Part shown: positions 37,876 to 64,000 of the stretch, piece after piece | Layout of the letters: every line of letters begins with the position of its first letter | Numbering within the stretch: position 1 is the stretch's first letter | Assembly (NCBI GenBank): GCA_963921275.4 | Contig: OZ001293.3 | Span: 4,160,001-4,224,000 of the forward strand | Reading direction: 5' to 3' | Length of the DNA: 64,000 nucleotides | DNA from: an uncultured Hormoscilla sp. | Lineage (GTDB): Bacteria; Cyanobacteriota; Cyanobacteriia; Cyanobacteriales; Desertifilaceae | The notes under the pieces: model-generated | What the model was told of the DNA's origin: nothing | Databases searched by the model: none | The model's input: the letters and a program-made list of their open reading frames with translations, nothing else | Translations under genes and position numbers: made by a program

Positions 37876-38375
37876 ATGTCAGAACAAGTTCGTTATATCA
37901 CCAACGAAGGATGTGTATTGTTGGATAACAGTCGTGTCAATTGGAGGACCGCAATTATATCTAACTCAGATATAGAAGCTATAGAAATTGTCGAACAGGA
38001 GATCGATGACCCGAGTATCCAAGTGGGAAGTGGTTGTCAATGGAATGGTTGTGGCGTAGAACCCCAATGGAACAATCCTAAATGTAGCAAGGTCTACGAT
38101 CATATTTTGCGTCATCATGGTCCTCAACTACAACCCCGTCATTTTCAGGGTAGAATAGCAAGTACCAACACCGATCAAGGACAGTGGCTAAACTTGCGGG
38201 ATTTAGTCAAGGCCGAACAAGTGACTCTTAAACATCCAGGCAGATATATCATCGATTTTTAGCGTCCTCTAGGGCGAGTTTATCATGCCGATGGTAGCAT
38301 AACTGAAAATGTTACCCGTGTTAATATTAACAGAAAGCTGGATGGCACTCTGAAATATGCTTATCCTGTAGTATA
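37876..38375 (+). pseudogene. Putative polymorphic-toxin nuclease domain; internal TAG, C-terminus displaced by IS982
   Basis: YDHILRHHGP...*RPLGRVY...DGTLKYAYPVV; the frame resumes after the IS (39395-39428). Confidence 0.55.
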
Positions 38376-39387
38376 ACTCAAGTTGCGACCTATAAAAATT
38401 GGATACAAAAAGCTATGATAAAGAGAATTATTTTCAACTCTAATCCCTTAGATGTAACAGCATGAATTGACTTGGGAAACAAATTGGTGATTCGACTAAA
38501 ACAGGTTTCAACTTGTTTTCTTGTTACTTTTTGTATATATTCAAAACAAGAATATTCTTTTCTTTTTGAGTTCTTTTTTCGCAAAGGTTTTAACATTATA
38601 CTTGACGACTCTTTTAGTAAATCCTCTAATTGATAATCATTATAAGCTTTATCTCCATAAACTATTGAATTTGATGGTAAGTCAAAGCCAAAAGATTGCA
38701 AAACTTTAACATCATTATAACTACCAGGATCTAGATAAAATTCTATTGGCTTTCCATTTTTGTTTACCAACATATGAACTCTTAATCCATAAAAATAACG
38801 TTTTTTACTGGCAATATACCCTCGATATTCTTCCTTGTTATAAATTTGGCATCTATCAATCCTAATATTATCACATACTGGCACCGGAAAACTATCAAGA
38901 ATATATTCTTGACCCGGATTGAGCTCTTTAAATGTTTGAGCTATAACTTGGAAGAAAAACATCCAAATTGGTTCCTCAATATTGTGTAATCGACGATTGA
39001 ACCTACTTTTACTTAACAGATTTTTTATATACTTGTGTTGGACCATAAATTGACAAGAGCGATCGTGGTGTCCTCCGAAAAAATATGCAGCAACTAATCC
39101 GACTGTCATCACTTCGGCATTGTTCATTTTTACTTGTGGATCTTCTTTTATATTTAACGCTTTTAGTAGCTCGTCACAAAGAACAAAAATTGTTGTAATC
39201 ATATCTTCCATCATCTACATCCCCCAGCAATTAACTATTATTTTAGTACATTATAACCTATAAACAGCCAACCCGCCGTCTAGCACAAAAAAAATATAAT
39301 TTTGTATCAAAAGCTACGAAATATCCCAAATATCTGTAAAGTCTAAGTGGGTAATTCATATTTTTTTTAATAGGTCGCAACTTAGGT
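38376..39387 (-). mobile_element. IS982-family insertion sequence (intact), 7-bp TSD TAGTATA
   Basis: IRs ACTCAAGTTGCGACCTAT / ATAGGTCGCAACTTAGGT; TSD at 38369-38375 and 39388-39394. Confidence 0.92.
38390..39214 (-). CDS. IS982-family transposase
   Basis: SRFNRRL, DSFPVPVC, YFYGLRVH, GDKAY, RKQVETCFS. Confidence 0.92.
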   Translation of the reverse strand: MMEDMITTIFVLCDELLKALNIKEDPQVKMNNAEVMTVGLVAAYFFGGHHDRSCQFMVQHKYIKNLLSKSRFNRRLHNIEEPIWMFFFQVIAQTFKELNPGQEYILDSFPVPVCDNIRIDRCQIYNKEEYRGYIASKKRYFYGLRVHMLVNKNGKPIEFYLDPGSYNDVKVLQSFGFDLPSNSIVYGDKAYNDYQLEDLLKESSSIMLKPLRKKNSKRKEYSCFEYIQKVTRKQVETCFSRITNLFPKSIHAVTSKGLELKIILFIIAFCIQFL

Positions 39388-39420
39388 TAGTATACCATTA
39401 CACCTTCAAGAAGAGAGAAA

Positions 39421-39975
39421 ATGAATAATCATCAATTTCATATTCAATTAGGAGAAGTTTGTTTGGAAAACTCGGCTCTCCCTCCATCAGATCTCCTGGG
39501 AGAACTTTCAGATTTTGAATTGGGACTGCGCCGCTTCTGTTACGAACAGGACCGACCAGTCGCGATCGCGATCGGGCCGTTCACAACCAGAGTATTTTTA
39601 GATCCGGACATATGCATGATGCTGGAAGATAACTTCCCAGAACAAATTGCGCTGCTTTCGGAGGGAAAAAACATGCAAATAGAATTTGCTGAGAGTTGTT
39701 GGCAAATTCTCAAGTTCATGCCTAGAGGTCAGAAAATCTCTTGTCAGATCGGAGAGTTTGGCTACTCTTTGCAGTCAAAAACTGTGGAACTGGACAAAGA
39801 TATAGTTTTAGGAGTGCTAAGAAATTTCTTAAATGAAGTCATGCAGATGGCCGTTGATAAAAGTTACATTACCCAGTCAGATAAAGAAGCATTTATCCGT
39901 CCTGCTTTTGTTACCCAGCAGTCAGTTACCGGTTACTGCATCTGTAAATCTGTAACCCATGCCAGCAGAAAATAA
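39421..39975 (+). CDS. Hypothetical protein, putative immunity protein
   Basis: Overlaps the reconstructed toxin stop by 8 nt. Confidence 0.5.
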   Translation: MNNHQFHIQLGEVCLENSALPPSDLLGELSDFELGLRRFCYEQDRPVAIAIGPFTTRVFLDPDICMMLEDNFPEQIALLSEGKNMQIEFAESCWQILKFMPRGQKISCQIGEFGYSLQSKTVELDKDIVLGVLRNFLNEVMQMAVDKSYITQSDKEAFIRPAFVTQQSVTGYCICKSVTHASRK

Positions 39976-39991
39976 AATAGCCCTACTTTCT

Positions 39992-40399
39992 TCATGATTT
40001 AGCGATCGGGCTATGCACTTGGTCACGCGATCGAGATGGAAGATTATCAATCAACTCCCTAGGATGATTTATCAGTTGTTGTCGGCGATCGCTAAAATAG
40101 CTGACTTCGTAAGCAGGTTCCAGTTCTTGACGCAACTGCTTCCACAAACTAATACCTTCTCGTTCAAAATCCTCTATTTCTTCTGGACTAAGTTCGGGGG
40201 AATCATAGGGGTCTGACCAGTTAATTCTAGCATCGTAAACATTTGCCCAGTTATGCAAACGAGTAATTGTCTCTGGACTTAAAGGTAGTTTTTCCGGCTC
40301 AATATTACCGACAATATCCGGTTCATCCCACCACAAAGGATCGCAGCCATAATCTGCCATTAGTCTAATTTTTTTTACCATCATATCCTCACCTTTCAT
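39992..40399 (-). CDS. Putative immunity protein
   Basis: KIRLMADYGCDPLW...LPLS..T..RL..W; acidic; immediately downstream of a toxin-like ORF. Confidence 0.55.
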   Translation of the reverse strand: MKGEDMMVKKIRLMADYGCDPLWWDEPDIVGNIEPEKLPLSPETITRLHNWANVYDARINWSDPYDSPELSPEEIEDFEREGISLWKQLRQELEPAYEVSYFSDRRQQLINHPRELIDNLPSRSRDQVHSPIAKS

Positions 40400-57626: not shown

Positions 57627-58451
57627 ATGATGGAAGATATGATTACAACAATTTTTGTTCTTTGTGACGAGCTACTAAAAGCGTTAAATATAAAAGAAGA
57701 TCCACAAGTAAAAATGAACAATGCCGAAGTGATGACAGTCGGATTAGTTGCTGCATATTTTTTCGGAGGACACCACGATCGCTCTTGTCAATTTATGGTC
57801 GAACACAAGTATATAAAAAATCTGTTAAGTAAAAGTAGGTTCAATCGTCGATTACACAATATTGAGGAACCAATTTGGATGTTTTTCTTCCAAGTTATAG
57901 CTCAAACATTTAAAGAGCTCAATCCGGGTCAAGAATATATTCTTGATAGTTTCCCGGTGCCAGTATGTGATAATATTAGGATTGATAGATGCCAAATTTA
58001 TAACAAGGAAGAATATCGAGGGTATATTGCCAGTAAAAAACGTTATTTTTATGGATTAAGAGTTCATATGTTGGTAAACAAAAATGGAAAGCCAATAGAA
58101 TTTTATCTAGATCCTGGTAGTTATAATGATGTTAAAGTTTTGCAATCTTTTGGCTTTGACTTACCATCAAATTCAATAGTTTATGGAGATAAAGCTTATA
58201 ATGATTATCAATTAGAGGATTTACTAAAAGAGTCGTCAAGTATAATATTAAAACCTTTGCGAAAAAAGAACTCAAAAAGAAAAGAATCTTCTTGTTTTGA
58301 ATATATACAAAAAGTAACAAGAAAACAAGTTGAAACCTGTTTTAGTCGAATCACCAATTTGTTTTCCAAGTCAATTCATGCTGTTACATCTAAGGGATTA
58401 GAGTTGAAAATAATTCTCTTTATCATAGCTTTTTGTATCCAATTTTTATAG
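57627..58451 (+). CDS. IS982-family transposase (second copy)
   Basis: Four amino-acid differences from 38390-39214. Confidence 0.92.
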   Translation: MMEDMITTIFVLCDELLKALNIKEDPQVKMNNAEVMTVGLVAAYFFGGHHDRSCQFMVEHKYIKNLLSKSRFNRRLHNIEEPIWMFFFQVIAQTFKELNPGQEYILDSFPVPVCDNIRIDRCQIYNKEEYRGYIASKKRYFYGLRVHMLVNKNGKPIEFYLDPGSYNDVKVLQSFGFDLPSNSIVYGDKAYNDYQLEDLLKESSSIILKPLRKKNSKRKESSCFEYIQKVTRKQVETCFSRITNLFSKSIHAVTSKGLELKIILFIIAFCIQFL

Positions 58452-58472
58452 GTCGCAACTTGAGTTATAAGA

Positions 58473-59054
58473 ATGCTTCAAGACTTGGATCGAACATTAG
58501 AAGAACTGCTTAAAAACGAATTACCACCGGAGGTGATATCCCCCCCGGAGGGGAAGTCAGTCACGATTAGTTTTTCAACTCCTGACAAAGATTTTGCTAC
58601 CAGAGTTGAGCTGCCAGCAATAGACCTGTTCCTCTACAACGTGCGGGAAAACATGGAATTGCGGACTGTCCCCTGGTCGGTAGAACGAGAAAATGGGATG
58701 GCAAGCAAGAAGCGTAACCCCGTCCGGGTAGATTGTTCTTATCTAATCACGGCTTGGTTGGAGGAAGAAAATGATGAAAATAAACAAGAGCACCGGCTAT
58801 TAGGAGAAGTGATGAAGGTGCTGTTGCGTCATCGGATAATTCCAGGGGCAGTATTGCAAGGAGATCTGCAAGGGCAAGAACCCCCCATCAGAACCACGGC
58901 ATTGGGACAACCTCAATTACAAAGTATGGGAGAATTCTGGCAGGCGATCGGGGGTAAACCAAGAGCAGCTCTGAATTACACTGTTACTATATCGGTAGAT
59001 GTTAATGATGTCGTGGAGACGGTACCGCTAGTGACAAATATACAAGTAAGATGA
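58473..59054 (+). CDS. Pvc16/DUF4255 family protein (associated with contractile injection systems)
   Basis: DLDRTLEELL, ISFSTPD, IDLFLYNVREN, SYLITAW, EHRLLGEV, FWQAIGGKPRAALNYTVT. Confidence 0.8.
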   Translation: MLQDLDRTLEELLKNELPPEVISPPEGKSVTISFSTPDKDFATRVELPAIDLFLYNVRENMELRTVPWSVERENGMASKKRNPVRVDCSYLITAWLEEENDENKQEHRLLGEVMKVLLRHRIIPGAVLQGDLQGQEPPIRTTALGQPQLQSMGEFWQAIGGKPRAALNYTVTISVDVNDVVETVPLVTNIQVR

Positions 59055-59072
59055 ATCAGCAGAGGACAGAGC

Positions 59073-59711
59073 ATGTCAGCATGGATGAAGTTGGAGGGAA
59101 TTAGTCGTCAGGTGGCGATCGCGGGAATGGTCAGGAATGCCCAAACTGGCCAGGGAATAGCCGGAGTCCGAGTAGAAATTACGGGAATGCCGGCAAAATT
59201 ACAAGCAAAAATTGACTTACTCGCTCAGCTATATGGGGCGGACTGGGATCGCAGAAAAGAACGACCGGACCGGACTGAAACTCGGCCTGATGGTTCCTTT
59301 TACTTCCTGGACCTGCCCGACGGAAATTATACCTTGAGGGCGTCATGGCTACAGGCAGGTACGCGCTATGGCAGTGCGAAACAAAATGTAACAGTGTCGC
59401 GGAATATCGAGGGCAAAATCAACAATCAGGAGATCCTGAAAATTGACTTGCCACCAACCTCACTTACAGGTATCATCACAGATGAAAAAGACAAAGCTGT
59501 AGTCATGGCGAAAGTGCAGCTTGAAGGGAGCAGCGAATATACTTACAGCGATCGCAAGGGGAACTATAGTATGATCGGATTAGAAGCAAGTGACAAACTG
59601 CGTCAAGTCAAGGTGAACGCCTTAGGCTACGAGTCCCAAGTGGCAGAGATAGTTTTGACTCAAGGACAGGTGAAAACTAAGAATATTGCTCTAGCTGGCG
59701 CTGCACAATGA
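59073..59711 (+). CDS. Carboxypeptidase-regulatory-like domain protein (eCIS-associated type)
   Basis: IAGMVRNAQTGQGIAG, DGSFYFLDLPDGNYTL, second beta-sandwich repeat. Confidence 0.75.
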   Translation: MSAWMKLEGISRQVAIAGMVRNAQTGQGIAGVRVEITGMPAKLQAKIDLLAQLYGADWDRRKERPDRTETRPDGSFYFLDLPDGNYTLRASWLQAGTRYGSAKQNVTVSRNIEGKINNQEILKIDLPPTSLTGIITDEKDKAVVMAKVQLEGSSEYTYSDRKGNYSMIGLEASDKLRQVKVNALGYESQVAEIVLTQGQVKTKNIALAGAAQ

Positions 59712-60069: not shown

Positions 60070-63000
60070 ATGAAGCATAAATCCTTTACCAACACCATGG
60101 TAGTAGTGGATGCCTCCCTAGAAAACTACCAGCAGCTTATAGACGGCATCCGGCCTGGGGCCAAATCTTTCCTCTTAGACCTTCGGTCCGATGGCATCGA
60201 ACAGATCGGCGAACTTCTCCGACAGCATAAAGAAACAGAGGTTCTGCACCTACTCTCCCACGGCAGCCCTGGCTGTCTGTATCTGGGAAACTCCCAACTG
60301 AGTTTGGATGGGGTCGAGCCGGGAATCGCTTCCCGACCCTCCCTTGAGGAACCGGACTTGCGATTTTCACCGCATCCGGCTACTGGGTACTAGGCCCTTT
60401 TCATAGGTAGACTTAATAGGAATTACTTCCGTTAGCCCTTGCCGCCTGTCTTTTCTTCCCTTTCCTGGTTTAGCGAGTGGTTGTTCTGATAACCGTTAGT
60501 ATCACCATTTTCAAGTCAGTTTTACCAGTTATCCATACCTTATCCTCCACTTGCGTTTCGGATTAGTTCCGTGGCTTTTTAGGATTACTCATTCCAGCAG
60601 CTTCCTAGTATCACCGACCCACGTCAGCGCTGGCTACCCAGCATCATCTACATTACTGTAGATGTTATCCCAGGAATTACCCCGGGCATTCGCTTCTTGG
60701 GCCATCCCTCCCCCCGTGGCTTGCGCTTAACATCTAACTTGTCCTGATGGACAGCACACGAGAGGTTACTTCGTTCCCTAACAACATTTCGCGATACCTT
60801 TAGGTCCACACTATACCCCGGGAGCTATTTGAGTACTATATTAGCCAGAGTCTAAAACTAATACTAGCTACCATTTCCTTTTTAGGCCAGCGCATATAGC
60901 CTTATTTCGCTGGTTCCTTATAACGAGGCTTGCACATGTTTGCCTGCTCTAACCTTGGATATCTTTCCTAGCGGCGTCACCGGCTTAGGCTGCCAGTTAT
61001 CCTACATTTGAGTCCTCGCTTAGCACCACGATGATGTCGCTTCGTAGCACCGAGGACCGGTGTCACCCCCGTACCTGGGGGGAGGGGAATTTAACCCCCA
61101 TGCGGTCAGAGTTCCCGGCTAATGAAACCGGGCTAGCGTTCCGTGTTTGACCACGTTAGGCTAGAACGAATCGCACAGATCCTCTAGGAGATTACGCCTC
61201 TACCCTGCAGAAGTGGAAGGTAAAACAACTCCTACTCTACGGCTGTAACGTCGCCGCCGGAGATGCAGGAGAGGAGTTGATGACTAAGCTACAGGCCCTG
61301 ACCGGGGCATCCCTCGCCGCCTCTACTACCCGGACAGGGGCAGCAGCCCGGGGCGGAAATTGGAAGTTGGAGTGGCGAACTCCGGGGATGAAAACTCCCT
61401 TAGCATTGTCCGCAGAAGCTCAGATGGCCTATGGGGGCATATTGATCCCCCAGCAGGAGTATCAGGCCTTAAGGGCTCTCTATCAAAGCACCAATGGGGC
61501 TTCTTGGACGAACAATACAGGCTGGCGGGACTGGAATTTCAACAGCGCAACTCCCCCCGATGCTTCTATTGTTAACGGTTGGCATGGGGTGACGGTAACT
61601 AACAACAGGGTGACGATGCTCAACCTGGACTCCAACCAACTGACTGGCAGCATCCCGACGGAGTTAGGGAATCTTTCCAATTTGGAGTTTCTCTGGCTGA
61701 ACATAAATCAACTGACTGGCAGCATCCCGACGGAGTTAGGGAATCTTTCCAATTTGGAGTCTCTCTGGCTGTACTCCAACCAACTGACTGGCAGCATCCC
61801 GACGGAGTTAGGGAATCTTTCCAATTTGGTATCTCTCAGGCTGGACTCCAACCGACTGACTGGCAGCATCCCGACGGAGTTAGGGAATCTTTTCAATTTG
61901 AGATCTATCTGGCTGTACTCCAACCAACTGACTGGCAGCATCCCGACGGAGTTAGGGAATCTTTCCAATTTGATATCTCTCAGGCTGGACTCCAACCGAC
62001 TGACTGGCAGCATCCCCCAAGAGGTCTTAGATTTGCGGGCCTCAAAGCGATTGGAAAACCCCCCTTATGTAAAAACCGAGATTACCGACGTCGAGTTCTT
62101 GCTAGGTAATAACCTCAACATAGACATTAGCGCAAATTTCGGCGACATCAATAACAACATCAACAACTACACAGCTACCGGTTTACCAGGGGGCGTAACG
62201 ATCAACAGTCGGAGAGTTATCAGCGGTACTCCTACTACCGCAGACACCTTTACCGTGACAGTAACAGCAACGGATAGGGCGGGAGGCCGGGGAGAAGATG
62301 AATTTAATATTACGGTATCGATTCCTCCTCTAAATGCAAGTGATTACGCCGCCCTTCAGGCTCTCTATAACAGTACTTCTGGGGATAATTGGACGAACAC
62401 GACAGGCTGGGATGTCAGCAGCCCAACTCCTCCCTCTGCTAGTGTTGTTAATAGCTGGCATGGGGTGACGGTAGTGGGAAATCGGGTGACGGAACTCAAC
62501 CTGTACAACAACTCCCTGAGCGGTACGCTCCCCTCGGAGTTAGGCTCCCTCAGCAATTTGCAACGCCTCATCCTGGAGTCAAACTCCCTGAGCGGTACGC
62601 TCCCCTCGGAGTTAGGCTCCCTCAGCAATTTGCAACGCCTCAACCTGTACAACAACTCCCTGAGCGGTACGCTCCCCTCGGAGTTAGGCTCCCTTAGCAA
62701 TTTGCAATACCTCTGGCTCTATTCCAACTCCCTGAGCGGTACGATCCCCGACAGTATCAACGCTTTGTCAGCAGACAAACGATTGGAAAACCCTCCCTAT
62801 GTGGAAATTCAAATTCCCGACGTCAATGCCTTCAGTAGTGAGAAATTCAACTTCAATGTCAGCGGGAACTTCGGCGACCTCAACAACAACATTAGTAGCT
62901 ACGGCGCTAATGGTTTGCCAAACGGTTTAACCATTAACTCCACTACTGGGGTGATCAGCGGCACTCCTACTACTGAGGGCAGTTTTACCGTGACGGTAAC

Positions 63001-64000
63001 AGCAACGGATATGGCTGGAGGCCGGGTAGAAGATGAATTTAATATTACGGTATCGATTCCTCCTCTCAATGCAAGTGATTACGCCGCCCTTCAGGCTCTC
63101 TATAACAGTACTTCTGGGGATAATTGGACTCACAGGAGAGGCTGGGATGTCAGCAGCCCAACTCCCCCCTCTGCTAGTGTTGTTAATAGCTGGCATGGGG
63201 TGACGGTAGTGGGCTCACGGGTGACGAAACTCGACCTGGACTCCAACTCCCTGAGCGGTACGCTCCCCTCGGAGTTAGGCTCCCTCAGCAATTTGCAAGA
63301 GCTCTGGCTGGGCGCCAACTCCCTGAGCGGTACGATCCCGTCCGAGTTAGGTTCCCTCAGCAATTTGCAAGAGCTCTGGCTGGGCGCCAACTCCCTGAGC
63401 GGTACGATCCCCTCGGAGTTAGGCTCCCTCAGCAATTTGCGATCCCTCGGCCTGGGCGCCAACTCCCTGAGCGGTACGATCCCCTCGGAGTTAGGCTCCC
63501 TCAGCAATTTGCAAGTACTCAACCTGCTCAGAAACTTCCTGAGCGGTACGATCCCCTCGGAGTTAGGCTCCCTCAGCAATTTGCGATCCCTCGGCCTGTA
63601 CTTCAACTCCCTGAGCGGTACGCTCCCCTCGGAGTTAGGCTCCCTCAGCAATTTGCAACGCCTCAACCTGTACAACAACTCCCTGAGCGGTACGATCCCC
63701 AACAGTATCAACGCTTTGTCAGCAGACAAAAAATTGGAAAACCCTCCCTATGTGGAAATTCAAATTCCCGACGTCAATGCCTTCAGTAGTGAGAAATTCA
63801 ACTTCAATGTCAGCGGGAACTTCGGCGACCTCAACAACAACATTAGTAGCTACGGCGCTAATGGTTTGCCAGACGGTTTAACAATTAACTCCACTACTGG
63901 GGTGATCAGCGGCATTCCTACTACTGAGGGCAGTTTTACCGTGACGGTAACAGCAACGGATAGGGCGGGAGGGCGGGAGGCCGGGGAGAAGATGAATTTA
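60070..64000 (+). pseudogene. Large DUF4347-[cap-LRR-Ig]x3 protein, interrupted by an antisense intron and frameshifted at 63963-63978; continues past the window
   Basis: LHLLSHGSPGCLYLGNSQLS|LDPL...LYGCNVAAG...GGNWKLE (DUF4347). Hand translation of 61178-63962 is open, with 6+4+7 LRRs (LxxLxLxxNxLxGxIPxELGxL) and three Ig-like units (GLP.G.TINS..GVISGTPT..FTVTVTATD). Confidence 0.88.
60306..61176 (-). mobile_element. ORF-less group II intron (871 nt), antisense within the DUF4347 domain
   Basis: Minus strand GTGCGATTCG...AGCCGGATGCGGTGAAAATCGCAAGTCCGGTTCC (DV)...CTCGACCCCATCC. Removing it restores the AGT TT|A GAT frame. Confidence 0.93.

What the first reader, a model, noticed from the sequence alone, without database searches (positions are those of the whole stretch)
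61608..63700. Antibody/VLR-like LRR arrays: near-invariant scaffold DNA, hypervariable binding-face codons
Seen: 17 plant-type 24-aa LRRs in three blocks (6, 4, 7). Each block has an N-cap (ALQALYNST.G.NW...GW...WHGV) and is followed by an Ig-like unit. Within a block the scaffold codons are almost identical even at synonymous sites, while the xxLxLxx positions change by multi-base substitutions: EFLWLNI, ESLWLYS, VSLRLDS, QRLILES, QYLWLYS, QELWLGA, RSLGLGA, QVLNLLR, RSLGLYF. Half-motifs reappear in new combinations, QRLNLYN recurs in blocks 2 and 3, and repeat number differs between the duplicated modules. Established: these positions form the concave ligand-binding surface of LRR receptors. 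Inference: a surface or secreted multi-head receptor diversified by repeat shuffling or gene conversion under positive selection, possibly for host or phage interaction.
Basis: partly seen in the sequence, partly recalled or inferred. Interest (0 to 1): 0.75.

Follow-up and report, generated by a model that had tools for sequence, protein, structure and literature searches.

The report
Hypervariable LRR heads, broken family copy
A filamentous cyanobacterium (nearest named relatives: sponge-symbiont Hormoscilla) carries about 30 genes for giant secreted proteins whose plant-type leucine-rich-repeat heads keep a nearly identical DNA scaffold while the five ligand-facing residues of each repeat differ almost at random; the copy in this window shows the pattern clearly but is itself broken.

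Summary
Window 61607-63721 holds 17 plant-type 24-residue LRR units in blocks of 6, 4 and 7. Each block has an N-cap and is followed by a He_PIG Ig-like domain. Within blocks, 27 of 45 nucleotides in codons 3, 4, 6, 8 and 9 vary, against 10 of 171 elsewhere.

The gene is one of about 31 paralogous loci (326 units). Genome-wide, replacement differences at the five codons (pN 0.51-0.69) far exceed scaffold synonymous differences (about 0.1). The third base of codons 8 and 9 is frozen (225 C to 4 T; 119 to 3). This fits amino-acid-directed diversification on a concertedly evolving scaffold. It does not fit DGR-like or VLR-like programmed mutagenesis.

The architecture is DUF4347 (caspase-fold, Tce1-like), LRR/He_PIG heads, FG-GAP repeats and a C-terminal RTX domain.

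This copy is probably a pseudogene. An antisense ORF-less group II intron (140 genomic copies) splits DUF4347, and an 8-nt duplication shifts the frame before FG-GAP/RTX.

The kind is known: the Flavobacterium psychrophilum LRR locus, fungal NLR repeats and plant R genes. This scan has also noted the same pattern on other DNA (e1-5020664). It is a new member of a known kind, at unusual scale.

The parts
60070..60305 (+). 5' part of the gene: N-half of the DUF4347 domain, holding the conserved SHG histidine
   Evidence: Pfam PF14252 profile positions 1-73, E 1.4e-20. 23 paralogous copies of 200 nt or more were found by blastn, and all matches end at the intron site.
60306..61176 (-). ORF-less group II intron, 871 nt, antisense to the gene, inserted between the catalytic-type His and Cys of DUF4347
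   Evidence: Rfam RF00029 (D5-D6) at 60308-60384 on the minus strand scores 44.4 bits (gathering score 40) with a canonical AGC D5. GTGCG lies at the 5' end at 61176. Intron-free paralogs define the boundaries. The genome holds 140 copies at 98% identity or more, with a target consensus of AACCTTA ... GAGTCT | A.
61177..61453 (+). C-half of DUF4347 (LYGC cysteine) and linker
   Evidence: Pfam PF14252 profile positions 72-164, E 7.4e-24. It lies in a different frame from the N-half. Removing the 871 nt restores the frame seen in paralogs.
61454..61606 (+). N-cap of LRR head 1
   Evidence: The motif QEYQALRALYQSTNGASWTNNTGW...WHGV. The model has a helix at residues 2-12 and strands before the first unit.
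61607..62038 (+). LRR array 1: 6 units of 72 nt (type A scaffold NQLTGSIPTELGNLS)
   Evidence: AlphaFold pLDDT is 90-98 over the units, with a beta strand at unit positions 4-6. Foldseek matches plant LRR ectodomains.
62039..62329 (+). C-cap and He_PIG Ig-like domain 1
   Evidence: Pfam He_PIG finds three stretches, E 6e-45. The fold was not confirmed because the model's pLDDT is under 50 here.
62330..62482 (+). N-cap of head 2
   Evidence: It is 143/153 nt identical to the N-cap of head 3.
62483..62770 (+). LRR array 2: 4 units (type B scaffold NSLSGTLPSELGSLS)
62771..63064 (+). C-cap and He_PIG domain 2
   Evidence: The best Pfam He_PIG stretch covers residues 551-632 of the frame that starts at 61160.
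63065..63217 (+). N-cap of head 3
63218..63721 (+). LRR array 3: 7 units (type B)
63722..64000 (+). He_PIG domain 3, cut by the window end and by a frameshift. Beyond the window the gene continues in another frame (window-equivalent 63964-65634) with FG-GAP_3 repeats and RTX nonapeptides.
   Evidence: Pfam gives FG-GAP_3 at E 2.1e-32 and HemolysinCabind at E 1.4e-13 on L011:6964-8631.
63963..63978 (+). 8-nt tandem duplication (GGGCGGGA twice) that shifts the reading frame
   Evidence: The homologous places in heads 1 and 2 carry one copy.

Best explanation
The arrays are the ligand-binding heads of one member of a lineage-expanded gene family of about 31 loci and 326 LRR units in this genome.

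Intact members encode giant proteins without a Sec signal. They carry an N-terminal DUF4347 domain (caspase/legumain-type fold with a conserved His-Cys pair). This is followed by one to three heads, each made of an N-cap, a plant-type LRR solenoid and a He_PIG Ig-like domain. FG-GAP repeats and a C-terminal RTX block follow. That is the layout of a type-1-secreted surface or extracellular binding protein (inferred).

Two processes shape the repeats. First, the 45-nt scaffold of each 72-nt unit is nearly identical between units and loci. In-register unequal recombination or conversion can therefore add, delete and homogenise units; this is shown as unit-number differences between near-duplicate modules and paralogs. 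Second, replacement substitutions accumulate at the five solvent-exposed residues of the LxxLxLxx strand far faster than synonymous change. This indicates diversifying selection on the binding face (shown as a pattern; the selective agent is inferred).

The likely ligands are molecules of a host or other biotic partner. The nearest named relatives are obligate sponge symbionts, where LRR proteins are postulated recognition factors.

The copy in this window is very probably dead. An antisense group II intron separates the His and Cys halves of DUF4347, and an 8-nt duplication uncouples the heads from FG-GAP/RTX.
For: Anatomy. An intact paralog of 1396 aa (G000:C1:4599517-4603704) shows the full architecture.

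Genome-wide pattern:
- Of 368 anchor matches, 326 passed the filters and form 67 arrays.
- In 156 type A units there are 124 distinct variable 21-mers but only 26 distinct scaffold 45-mers. 42% of unit pairs have identical scaffold DNA. The 15 variable nucleotides differ at 54% and the scaffold at 5.9%.
- pN at codons 3, 4, 6, 8 and 9 is 0.51-0.69. Scaffold pS runs from 0 to 0.35, mostly under 0.2.
- Over all 326 units the third base of codon 8 is C in 288 and of codon 9 in 258, while bases 1-2 are near maximal entropy.
- Two-fold NNY codons are 225 C-ending to 4 T-ending at codon 8, and 119 to 3 at codon 9. The C fraction is 0.38-0.43 in 633 long ORFs of the genome.
- Among unit pairs that differ by 1-6 nt, 60-89% of the differences fall in the 15 variable nucleotides (21% expected).

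Turnover: no variable heptad is shared between 257 in G000 and 115, 22 and 17 sampled in three congeners. Flanking genes of G000 and G004 differ by dS of only 0.085-0.28.

Expansion is genus-specific: 23-133 matches in four congeners against 0-10 in 26 other genomes.

Unit-number change: 4 against 7 units in near-identical modules, and a 3-unit indel between paralogs.

Fold: the LRR part has pLDDT 90-98. The top 50 Foldseek rows include plant LRR receptors, SERK co-receptors and PGIP, with E down to 5.8e-14.

DUF4347: model pLDDT 96.2. The best PDB match is 9qpe_G (Tce1, E 2.7e-5, TMq 0.59), followed by legumain and caspases. Cys is invariant and His is kept in at least 90% of 30 sequences. 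Tce1 is described as a putative cysteine protease resembling the TcdB/RtxA CPD (passages of PMC13323088).

Disruption.

Organism and role: the nearest named proteins come from Hormoscilla MAGs. LRR proteins in Hormoscilla are postulated to act in sponge recognition (passage of PMC6520454).
Against: No expression or protein data exist. No RNA run holding this DNA was listed.

pN/pS between repeat units is not a phylogenetic site test, and conversion lowers scaffold pS by an unknown amount. The type A and B subsets were chosen by exact scaffold motifs (199 of 326 units), which fixes their scaffold amino acids by construction, though not their synonymous sites.

Many family members are damaged. 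Six carry the intron. Seven junctions within or between arrays are out of frame (5 with gaps of 73 nt or less, 2 longer; 11 of 32 junctions are flagged in all, and 4 of those may be separate genes). 7 of 14 listed DUF4347 matches in G000 lie in open frames under 500 aa. Part of the family may therefore be decaying rather than selected, or some 1-nt indels may be assembly errors.

No ligand, secretion system or host contact was shown. The He_PIG fold was not confirmed (pLDDT under 50).

Only a sample of the congeners' units was compared: 144, 36 and 19 units.
Confidence: 0.7

Rival explanations
1. Relaxed constraint plus gene conversion, without positive selection. The five positions are simply free to drift, while conversion and purifying selection keep the scaffold uniform.
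For: Scaffold homogeneity across loci shows concerted evolution. Many copies are pseudogenes, where drift is expected. In the congener G004 the scaffold is much less uniform (0.21 against 0.57 at variable sites; 32 units).
Against: Drift cannot make replacement change exceed synonymous change. pN is 0.5-0.7 against scaffold pS of about 0.1. Inside the variable codons themselves the synonymous third base is frozen (225:4 and 119:3) while bases 1-2 are scrambled. Conversion tracts that homogenise the scaffold would also homogenise the 27 nt between scaffolds unless selection removes such events. Closest unit pairs already concentrate their differences in the variable codons.
Confidence: 0.12
2. 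Programmed diversification: a DGR-like mutagenic retroelement, VLR-like cassette assembly, or a recombinational contingency system that rewrites arrays within a population.
For: NNC codons at positions 8 and 9 resemble the AAC-to-NNC outcome of DGRs. The genome is rich in retroelements (140 intron copies). Many short LRR fragments exist that could act as donors (5 one-unit and 16 two-unit arrays). A few unit runs are shared between loci (runs of 5, 3, 2 and 2 units).
Against: Variable nucleotides sit at consensus G, A, T and C alike. The 12 scaffold adenines of type A units vary at only 1.8%. 326 units at 31 loci cannot be served by one template repeat. The arrays are complete in the chromosome. 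235 of 258 variable 21-mers are confined to one locus. Contigs of public runs were too short to show array variants. No search for a DGR reverse transcriptase, Avd or a deaminase was made.
Confidence: 0.06
3. The LRR protein is a component, tail fibre or cargo of the neighbouring contractile injection system. DUF4347 would serve as the tube-loading domain, as in the T6SS effector Tce1.
For: The gene lies between the Pvc16_N and CarboxypepD_reg genes and two sheath and two tube genes. The DUF4347 protein Tce1 is loaded inside Hcp3 rings (abstract and passages of PMC13323088).
Against: The orthologous cluster of congener G004 has an IS transposase, not an LRR gene, at this intergenic site. Homology between the two genomes stops at 59711 and resumes at 66105. 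The other 30 or so family loci are scattered across the chromosome, though I did not examine their neighbouring genes. The paralogous unit brings its own upstream 115-160 nt. A protein of 1400-2000 aa with an RTX end fits type 1 secretion better than a tube lumen.
Confidence: 0.04
4. Assembly artefact: repeats collapsed, chimeric or homogenised by polishing.
For: Repeats are hard to assemble. Short contigs of public runs do not span any array. Some 1-nt indels in paralogs could be errors.
Against: The arrays are 288-504 nt long and lie in a 6.88-Mb contig. The same unit structure and nearly the same scaffold DNA appear in independently assembled congeners. The coding periodicity, caps and domains are intact across 2.8 kb. 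The frameshift is an 8-nt duplication, not a homopolymer slip.
Confidence: 0.02

Closest known systems
Flavobacterium psychrophilum cell-surface LRR protein locus (Duchaud 2007 and Castillo 2015 as cited in Altae-Tran et al. 2020, PMC10392669; I read passages only)
   Same: Bacterial secreted or surface LRR proteins built from near-identical repeat units with a few hypervariable positions on one face. Unit number is variable, many gene fragments exist, and there are signs of recombination.
   Different: That locus holds units of about 22 residues, uses a T9SS signal, and is a single tandem locus of up to 19 genes that varies between strains. Here the units are 24-residue plant-type with an N-cap, and each head is followed by He_PIG. 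The protein has DUF4347 at the N-terminus and FG-GAP/RTX at the C-terminus. The roughly 31 loci are dispersed, and strain-level variation is untested.
Highly internally conserved WD, ANK and TPR repeats of fungal NLRs (Podospora HNWD/het-e family; Dyrka et al. 2014, PMC4986451; I read passages only)
   Same: Repeats are 85% or more identical internally. There is concerted evolution within and between paralogs, repeat-number polymorphism, and positive diversifying selection on a handful of codons that map to the interaction surface.
   Different: Those are eukaryotic intracellular STAND receptors with other repeat folds, and RIP may act as a mutator. Here the proteins are bacterial and extracellular, with LRRs and no NOD domain.
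Plant LRR receptor ectodomains, PGIP and R-gene LRRs (structures 8wee, 4mna, 4q3i, 1ogq)
   Same: The same 24-residue repeat class and N-cap, with 29-43% identity over the aligned part. Hypervariable solvent-exposed xxLxLxx residues in plant R genes are established knowledge, which I recall rather than read here.
   Different: There is no transmembrane or kinase part and the protein is bacterial. The N-cap shows no cysteine pair in this sequence (read by eye). The scaffold is uniform at the DNA level to a degree not typical of plant receptors.
Eukaryotic-like LRR proteins of sponge symbionts (Hormoscilla: Schorn et al. 2019, PMC6520454; I read one passage)
   Same: The nearest named homologs are Hormoscilla proteins. 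LRR (COG4886) proteins are noted there as a symbiosis hallmark.
   Different: In the passages found, the paper only reports their presence. It gives no account of family size, scaffold identity, hypervariable positions or architecture.
Lamprey VLRs and antibodies
   Same: A conserved LRR scaffold with variation on the concave face, and many different binding surfaces in one genome.
   Different: VLRs are assembled somatically from cassettes into an incomplete germline gene. Here every array is complete in the chromosome and the diversity is germline and evolutionary.
Tce1/PA0256 and the CPD of TcdB and MARTX toxins (for the DUF4347 domain; PMC13323088 passages)
   Same: The Pfam family is DUF4347 and the best structural match is 9qpe_G. 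There is a His-Cys pair on a caspase-type fold.
   Different: Tce1 is a 310-aa T6SS cargo. Here the domain heads a protein of 1400-2000 aa with an RTX end. Activity, activation and substrate are unknown.

Membership tests
Leucine-rich repeat proteins, plant-specific (24-residue) class | Tandem units that match the LRR profiles, with consensus LxxLxLxxNxL(s/t)GxIPxxLGxLxx (the consensus is recalled from the literature, not from a call) | tested here: met
   Pfam LRR_1 scores E 1.1e-48 and LRR_8 E 2.3e-24. All 17 units fit the consensus.
Leucine-rich repeat proteins, plant-specific (24-residue) class | Solenoid fold with an N-terminal cap, as in plant receptor ectodomains | tested here: met
   The model has pLDDT 90-98 over the units. 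The top 50 Foldseek rows include plant LRR receptor ectodomains, SERK and PGIP, with SERK TMt of 0.73-0.84.
Hypervariable, internally conserved repeat families (F. psychrophilum LRR; fungal NLR repeats) | Units nearly identical to each other, also in DNA | tested here: met
   42% of 12,090 type A unit pairs have identical 45-nt scaffolds, and there are 26 distinct scaffolds in 156 units.
Hypervariable, internally conserved repeat families (F. psychrophilum LRR; fungal NLR repeats) | Variation confined to a few codons on the binding surface, with an excess of replacement change | tested here: met
   The assignment to the surface rests on strand positions in the model and on established LRR geometry.
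Hypervariable, internally conserved repeat families (F. psychrophilum LRR; fungal NLR repeats) | Repeat-number differences between alleles or paralogs | tested here: met
   4 against 7 units in near-duplicate modules. Arrays range from 1 to 14 units. There is a 3-unit difference between two paralogs.
Hypervariable, internally conserved repeat families (F. psychrophilum LRR; fungal NLR repeats) | Differences between strains of one species | not testable with these tools
   Only one genome per species is held. Public-run contigs do not span arrays. Between species no heptad is shared.
VLR-type somatic assembly | Incomplete germline gene completed from flanking LRR cassettes | tested here: not met
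   All three arrays, with caps, are contiguous in the chromosome. Cassette sharing between loci is rare. A deaminase was not searched for.
DGR variable region | Variation only at positions that are adenine in a template repeat, with a nearby RT and accessory gene | tested here: not met
   Highly variable nucleotides have consensus G, A, T and C, and scaffold adenines are invariant. The template repeat, RT and Avd were not searched for.
RTX / type 1 secretion substrates | C-terminal glycine- and aspartate-rich nonapeptide repeats | tested here: met
   HemolysinCabind scores E 1.4e-13 on the frame 63964-65634. In this copy it is out of frame with the heads.
RTX / type 1 secretion substrates | Cognate ABC transporter, membrane fusion protein and outer-membrane channel | not tested
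   No search was made.
DUF4347 (PF14252), putative clan CD-like cysteine peptidase | Match to the family profile | tested here: met
   There are two half matches (profile positions 1-73 and 72-164), split by the intron. 30 matches occur in G000, and 41 of 61 genomes of the order have the family.
DUF4347 (PF14252), putative clan CD-like cysteine peptidase | Caspase-type fold with conserved His and Cys after hydrophobic strands | tested here: met
   Cys is invariant and His is kept in at least 90% of 30 sequences. The model has pLDDT 96.2. Foldseek gives 9qpe_G at E 2.7e-5, then legumain and caspases at E of about 1e-3, which is weak.
DUF4347 (PF14252), putative clan CD-like cysteine peptidase | Proteolytic activity | not testable with these tools
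   Activity is only inferred, both here and for Tce1 in the paper.
Group II intron | Domain V/VI structure, a GUGYG 5' end and target-site pairing signature | tested here: met
   RF00029 scores 44.4 bits against a gathering score of 40. GTGCG lies at the 5' end. 140 insertion sites share IBS-like consensus blocks. No reading frame for an intron-encoded protein is present. The last two bases beyond the canonical AU end are unexplained.
Extracellular contractile injection system component | Conserved place in the cluster across related genomes | tested here: not met
   G004 has an IS element at this site and no homology across 59712-66104.

The most novel reading that the evidence does not exclude
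The family may be a germline-encoded recognition repertoire of a symbiotic cyanobacterium. It would comprise more than 250 different LRR binding faces that are species-specific and turn over faster than silent sites. New faces would be generated continually by unit duplication and selected replacement. The heads would be released or activated by the N-terminal caspase-fold (CPD-like) domain on contact with a eukaryotic host. If so, a bacterium would run, at the evolutionary level, the same strategy as plant R genes and fungal NLRs, but pointed at its host or its phages. The intron burst and frameshifts would be the visible death side of a fast birth-and-death process.
Probability: 0.2. Interest if true: 0.75.

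Novelty: new member of a known kind. Interest (0 to 1): 0.5.

Why it matters
LRR proteins are listed as 'eukaryotic-like' hallmarks of sponge symbionts, but little is known about what they do. This genome gives a large natural data set: 326 units on an almost constant scaffold. In it, the residues that matter for binding are marked out by evolution itself, and intact and dead copies lie side by side. That makes two questions testable. The first is which partners (host, phage or other microbes) drive the diversification. The second is whether bacteria use concerted evolution plus diversifying selection as a general way to build binding repertoires. The constant scaffold with five free positions per unit is also a ready-made template for engineered binders. 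For this particular locus the practical message is more sober: it should be annotated as a disrupted gene.

Tried and rejected
1. Public reads. One look-up listed 24 runs, none on record as an RNA holder (no RNA holder listed). I laid four runs. All are short assembled contigs and no piece spans an array, so neither array variants nor the assembly could be checked. A joint that skips 871 nt (60305 to 61177) appears in X1 and X2. It has only 30 nt on the shorter side and may come from intron-free paralogs, so it is not evidence for an intact allele.

2. DGR-type mutagenesis: rejected on base specificity.

3. Ancient cassette pool shuffled between arrays: rejected as the main source. No heptads are shared with congeners and there are few shared runs.

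4. DNA-level constraint on the scaffold across species: not needed. The congener is close (dS 0.085-0.28).

5. Injection-system membership: rejected.

6. He_PIG fold: the 5-sequence alignment gave pLDDT under 50 for that part, so only the HMM match stands.

7. Literature searches. A search for DUF4347 found 5 papers. Hormoscilla plus leucine-rich found 2. Searches on sponge-symbiont LRR with 'hypervariable', on plant-specific LRR in bacteria, and on LRR, cyanobacteria and diversifying selection gave no description of this family. One search was too broad to be useful.

8. This scan's notes for this genome: none.

9. Integrity of every paralog by Pfam was not done. The counts rest on open-frame lengths and junction frames.

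Full report
What is at the coordinates. A single plus-strand frame is open from 61160 to the window end. It holds 17 units of 72 nt, starting at 61607 (6 units), 62483 (4) and 63218 (7). Tandem Repeats Finder independently reports period-72 arrays there. Each array is preceded by a 51-residue cap (..ALxALYxSTxGxxWxxxxGW....WHGV) and followed by a He_PIG Ig-like domain (three stretches, E 6e-45). The unit reads NLxxLxLxxNxL(T/S)GxIPxELGxLS, the 24-residue plant-type consensus; I recall that consensus from the literature. A model of head 1 is confident over the repeats (pLDDT 90-98) and puts a strand at unit positions 4-6. It is poor (under 50) over He_PIG. The top Foldseek rows include plant LRR receptor ectodomains, SERK co-receptors and PGIP (E down to 5.8e-14, 29-43% identity).

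I took the inner units of each block, dropping the first and last because they merge into the caps. 27 of 45 nucleotides in codons 3, 4, 6, 8 and 9 vary, against 10 of 171 elsewhere (odds ratio 24, p 1e-14). Scaffold codons are identical or nearly so at synonymous sites. QRLNLYN recurs with identical DNA in blocks 2 and 3. Heads 2 and 3 are near-duplicates (143/153 and 246/254 nt identical outside the arrays) with 4 and 7 units.

The whole gene, and why this copy is broken. Upstream, 60070-60305 encodes the first half of a DUF4347 domain (profile positions 1-73). The second half (72-164) starts at 61177 in another frame. Between them lies an 871-nt ORF-less group II intron on the minus strand. 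Rfam D5/D6 scores above the gathering score, with a canonical AGC domain V, and GTGCG lies at the 5' end. Intron-free paralogs read straight through the site. Because the intron is antisense, it cannot be spliced from the gene's transcript. Downstream, an 8-nt tandem duplication at 63963-63978 shifts the frame inside the third He_PIG domain. Beyond the window the gene continues in the new frame to window-equivalent 65634, with FG-GAP_3 repeats (E 2.1e-32) and RTX nonapeptides (E 1.4e-13). With both lesions, the heads are cut off from both the N-terminal domain and the secretion end, so I read this locus as a pseudogene (about 0.8).

A large family. The 2.8-kb stretch has 86 DNA matches in its own genome. 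An anchor search over the genome gave 368 candidate units. 326 passed simple filters (no stop codon, hydrophobic residues at positions 2, 5 and 7). They form 67 arrays of 1-14 units at 31 loci. At least one intact member of 1396 aa shows the full architecture: DUF4347, two heads, FG-GAP and RTX. Many others are damaged. Six carry the same intron at the same site. Seven junctions within or between arrays are out of frame. 7 of the 14 listed DUF4347 matches lie in open frames under 500 aa. The expansion is genus-specific: four congeners have 23-133 matches, while 26 other genomes of the order have 0-10. The nearest named proteins are from Hormoscilla MAGs and, for DUF4347-LRR fusions, from Okeania.

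How the repeats evolve. I analysed two subsets: 156 units with the exact type A scaffold and 43 with type B. These subsets were chosen by scaffold motif, so only their synonymous sites are informative for the scaffold. Replacement differences at the five codons are 0.51-0.69 per site. Scaffold synonymous differences are mostly under 0.2. Type A has 124 distinct variable segments but only 26 distinct scaffold DNAs, and 42% of unit pairs have identical scaffolds.

The sharpest control lies inside the variable codons. Over all 326 units, bases 1 and 2 of codons 8 and 9 are near maximal entropy while base 3 is C in 288 and 258 units. Two-fold NNY codons are 225:4 and 119:3 in favour of C, in a genome that uses C in only 38-43% of such codons. 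A regional mutator or plain drift would not spare the silent base. Amino-acid-directed change over a short time would.

Even the closest unit pairs (1-6 differences) put 60-89% of their differences into the 15 variable nucleotides. The repertoire is young. None of 257 heptads is shared with the sampled units of three congeners (115, 22 and 17 distinct heptads), although flanking genes of G000 and G004 differ by dS of only 0.085-0.28. Cassette shuffling exists but is minor. 23 of 258 variable 21-mers occur at two or more loci, and shared runs between loci reach 5, 3, 2 and 2 units. A DGR-like process is not supported: variable bases have consensus G, A, T and C, and scaffold adenines are invariant.

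The N-terminal domain. I aligned 30 DUF4347 domains from the order. Cys is invariant and His is kept in at least 90%, each after a hydrophobic strand. The model is very confident (pLDDT 96.2). Its best PDB match is the DUF4347 protein Tce1 of P. aeruginosa (9qpe_G, E 2.7e-5). Legumain and caspases follow at weak scores. The paper on that structure calls Tce1 a putative cysteine protease resembling the autoprocessing domain of TcdB and MARTX toxins (passages read). An earlier paper notes that PA0256 carries DUF4347. A processing or release role for this domain in the LRR proteins is inference only.

Context. The gene sits between the Pvc16_N and CarboxypepD_reg genes and the sheath and tube genes of a contractile injection system. 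In congener G004 the same cluster has an IS transposase at this spot, and homology breaks exactly at 59711 and 66105. The paralogous unit also brings its own upstream 115-160 nt. I therefore take the location to be an insertion, not a functional link.

Comparison with what is known. The pattern of near-identical repeats, a few hypervariable surface codons, unit-number change, many fragments and paralog exchange is described in several places. One is the F. psychrophilum LRR locus (passages of PMC10392669). Another is the WD, ANK and TPR repeats of fungal NLRs (passages of PMC4986451). It is textbook for plant R genes, which I recall rather than read here. For Hormoscilla, the passages I found only state that LRR proteins are present and may act in sponge recognition (PMC6520454). 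My searches found no description of this family. This scan has noted plant-type LRR modules in sponge-associated bacteria, and one hypervariable LRR lipoprotein cluster, on other DNA. Those are unchecked notes.

Verdict. The finding is a new member of a known kind. It is notable for scale (326 units), for the clean within-codon signature, and for the DUF4347 / LRR-He_PIG / FG-GAP / RTX architecture. The locus in the window is a dead copy.

Limits. There are no expression data, no strain comparison and no ligand. The unit-based pN/pS is not a tree-based test. The congeners were only sampled. The public-run contigs could neither confirm nor challenge the array order.

Noticed in passing
window 60306-61176 (minus strand): An 871-nt ORF-less group II intron is present in 140 copies at 98% identity or more across the chromosome, about 1.7% of the genome. 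The insertion sites share a consensus (AACCTTA ... GAGTCT | A). Six DUF4347 genes carry it antisense at the same codon. Relative to intron-free paralogs, the element runs two bases (CC) past the canonical AU 3' end, which I cannot explain. Contigs of runs from other studies (X5, X6) hold the same intron without differences over 753-874 nt.
   Followed up: partly
window 57627-59711 and L011 9141-19000 (window-equivalent 66141-76000): A contractile injection system cluster (Pvc16_N, a CarboxypepD_reg protein, two sheath genes, two tube genes and more) is interrupted at one intergenic site. In this genome the interruption is the LRR gene, and in congener G004 it is an IS transposase. A DDE transposase gene also abuts Pvc16_N at 57627-58451.
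   Followed up: partly
genome contig C3 (31,420 nt): One small contig of the assembly has 17.6% G+C, against 42-49% for the other six contigs. It may belong to another replicon or organism.
   Followed up: no
G000:C1, e.g. 4607047-4607121, 4931548-4931622, 5619231-5619305, 5699426-5699500: Some arrays contain in-frame 75-nt units (25 residues, one extra residue before the Asn). The scaffold therefore tolerates a one-residue length variant.
   Followed up: no
window 38001-40000: G+C falls to 36.5% in this 2-kb bin, against 43-52% in the other bins of the window.
   Followed up: no
G000:C1:2453829-2454344 and 3981014-3981529: Two 172-codon open frames each hold a single LRR unit with the same heptad (ESLRLDG). 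Each lies just upstream of a family member. They look like remnants of a duplicated fragment.
   Followed up: no
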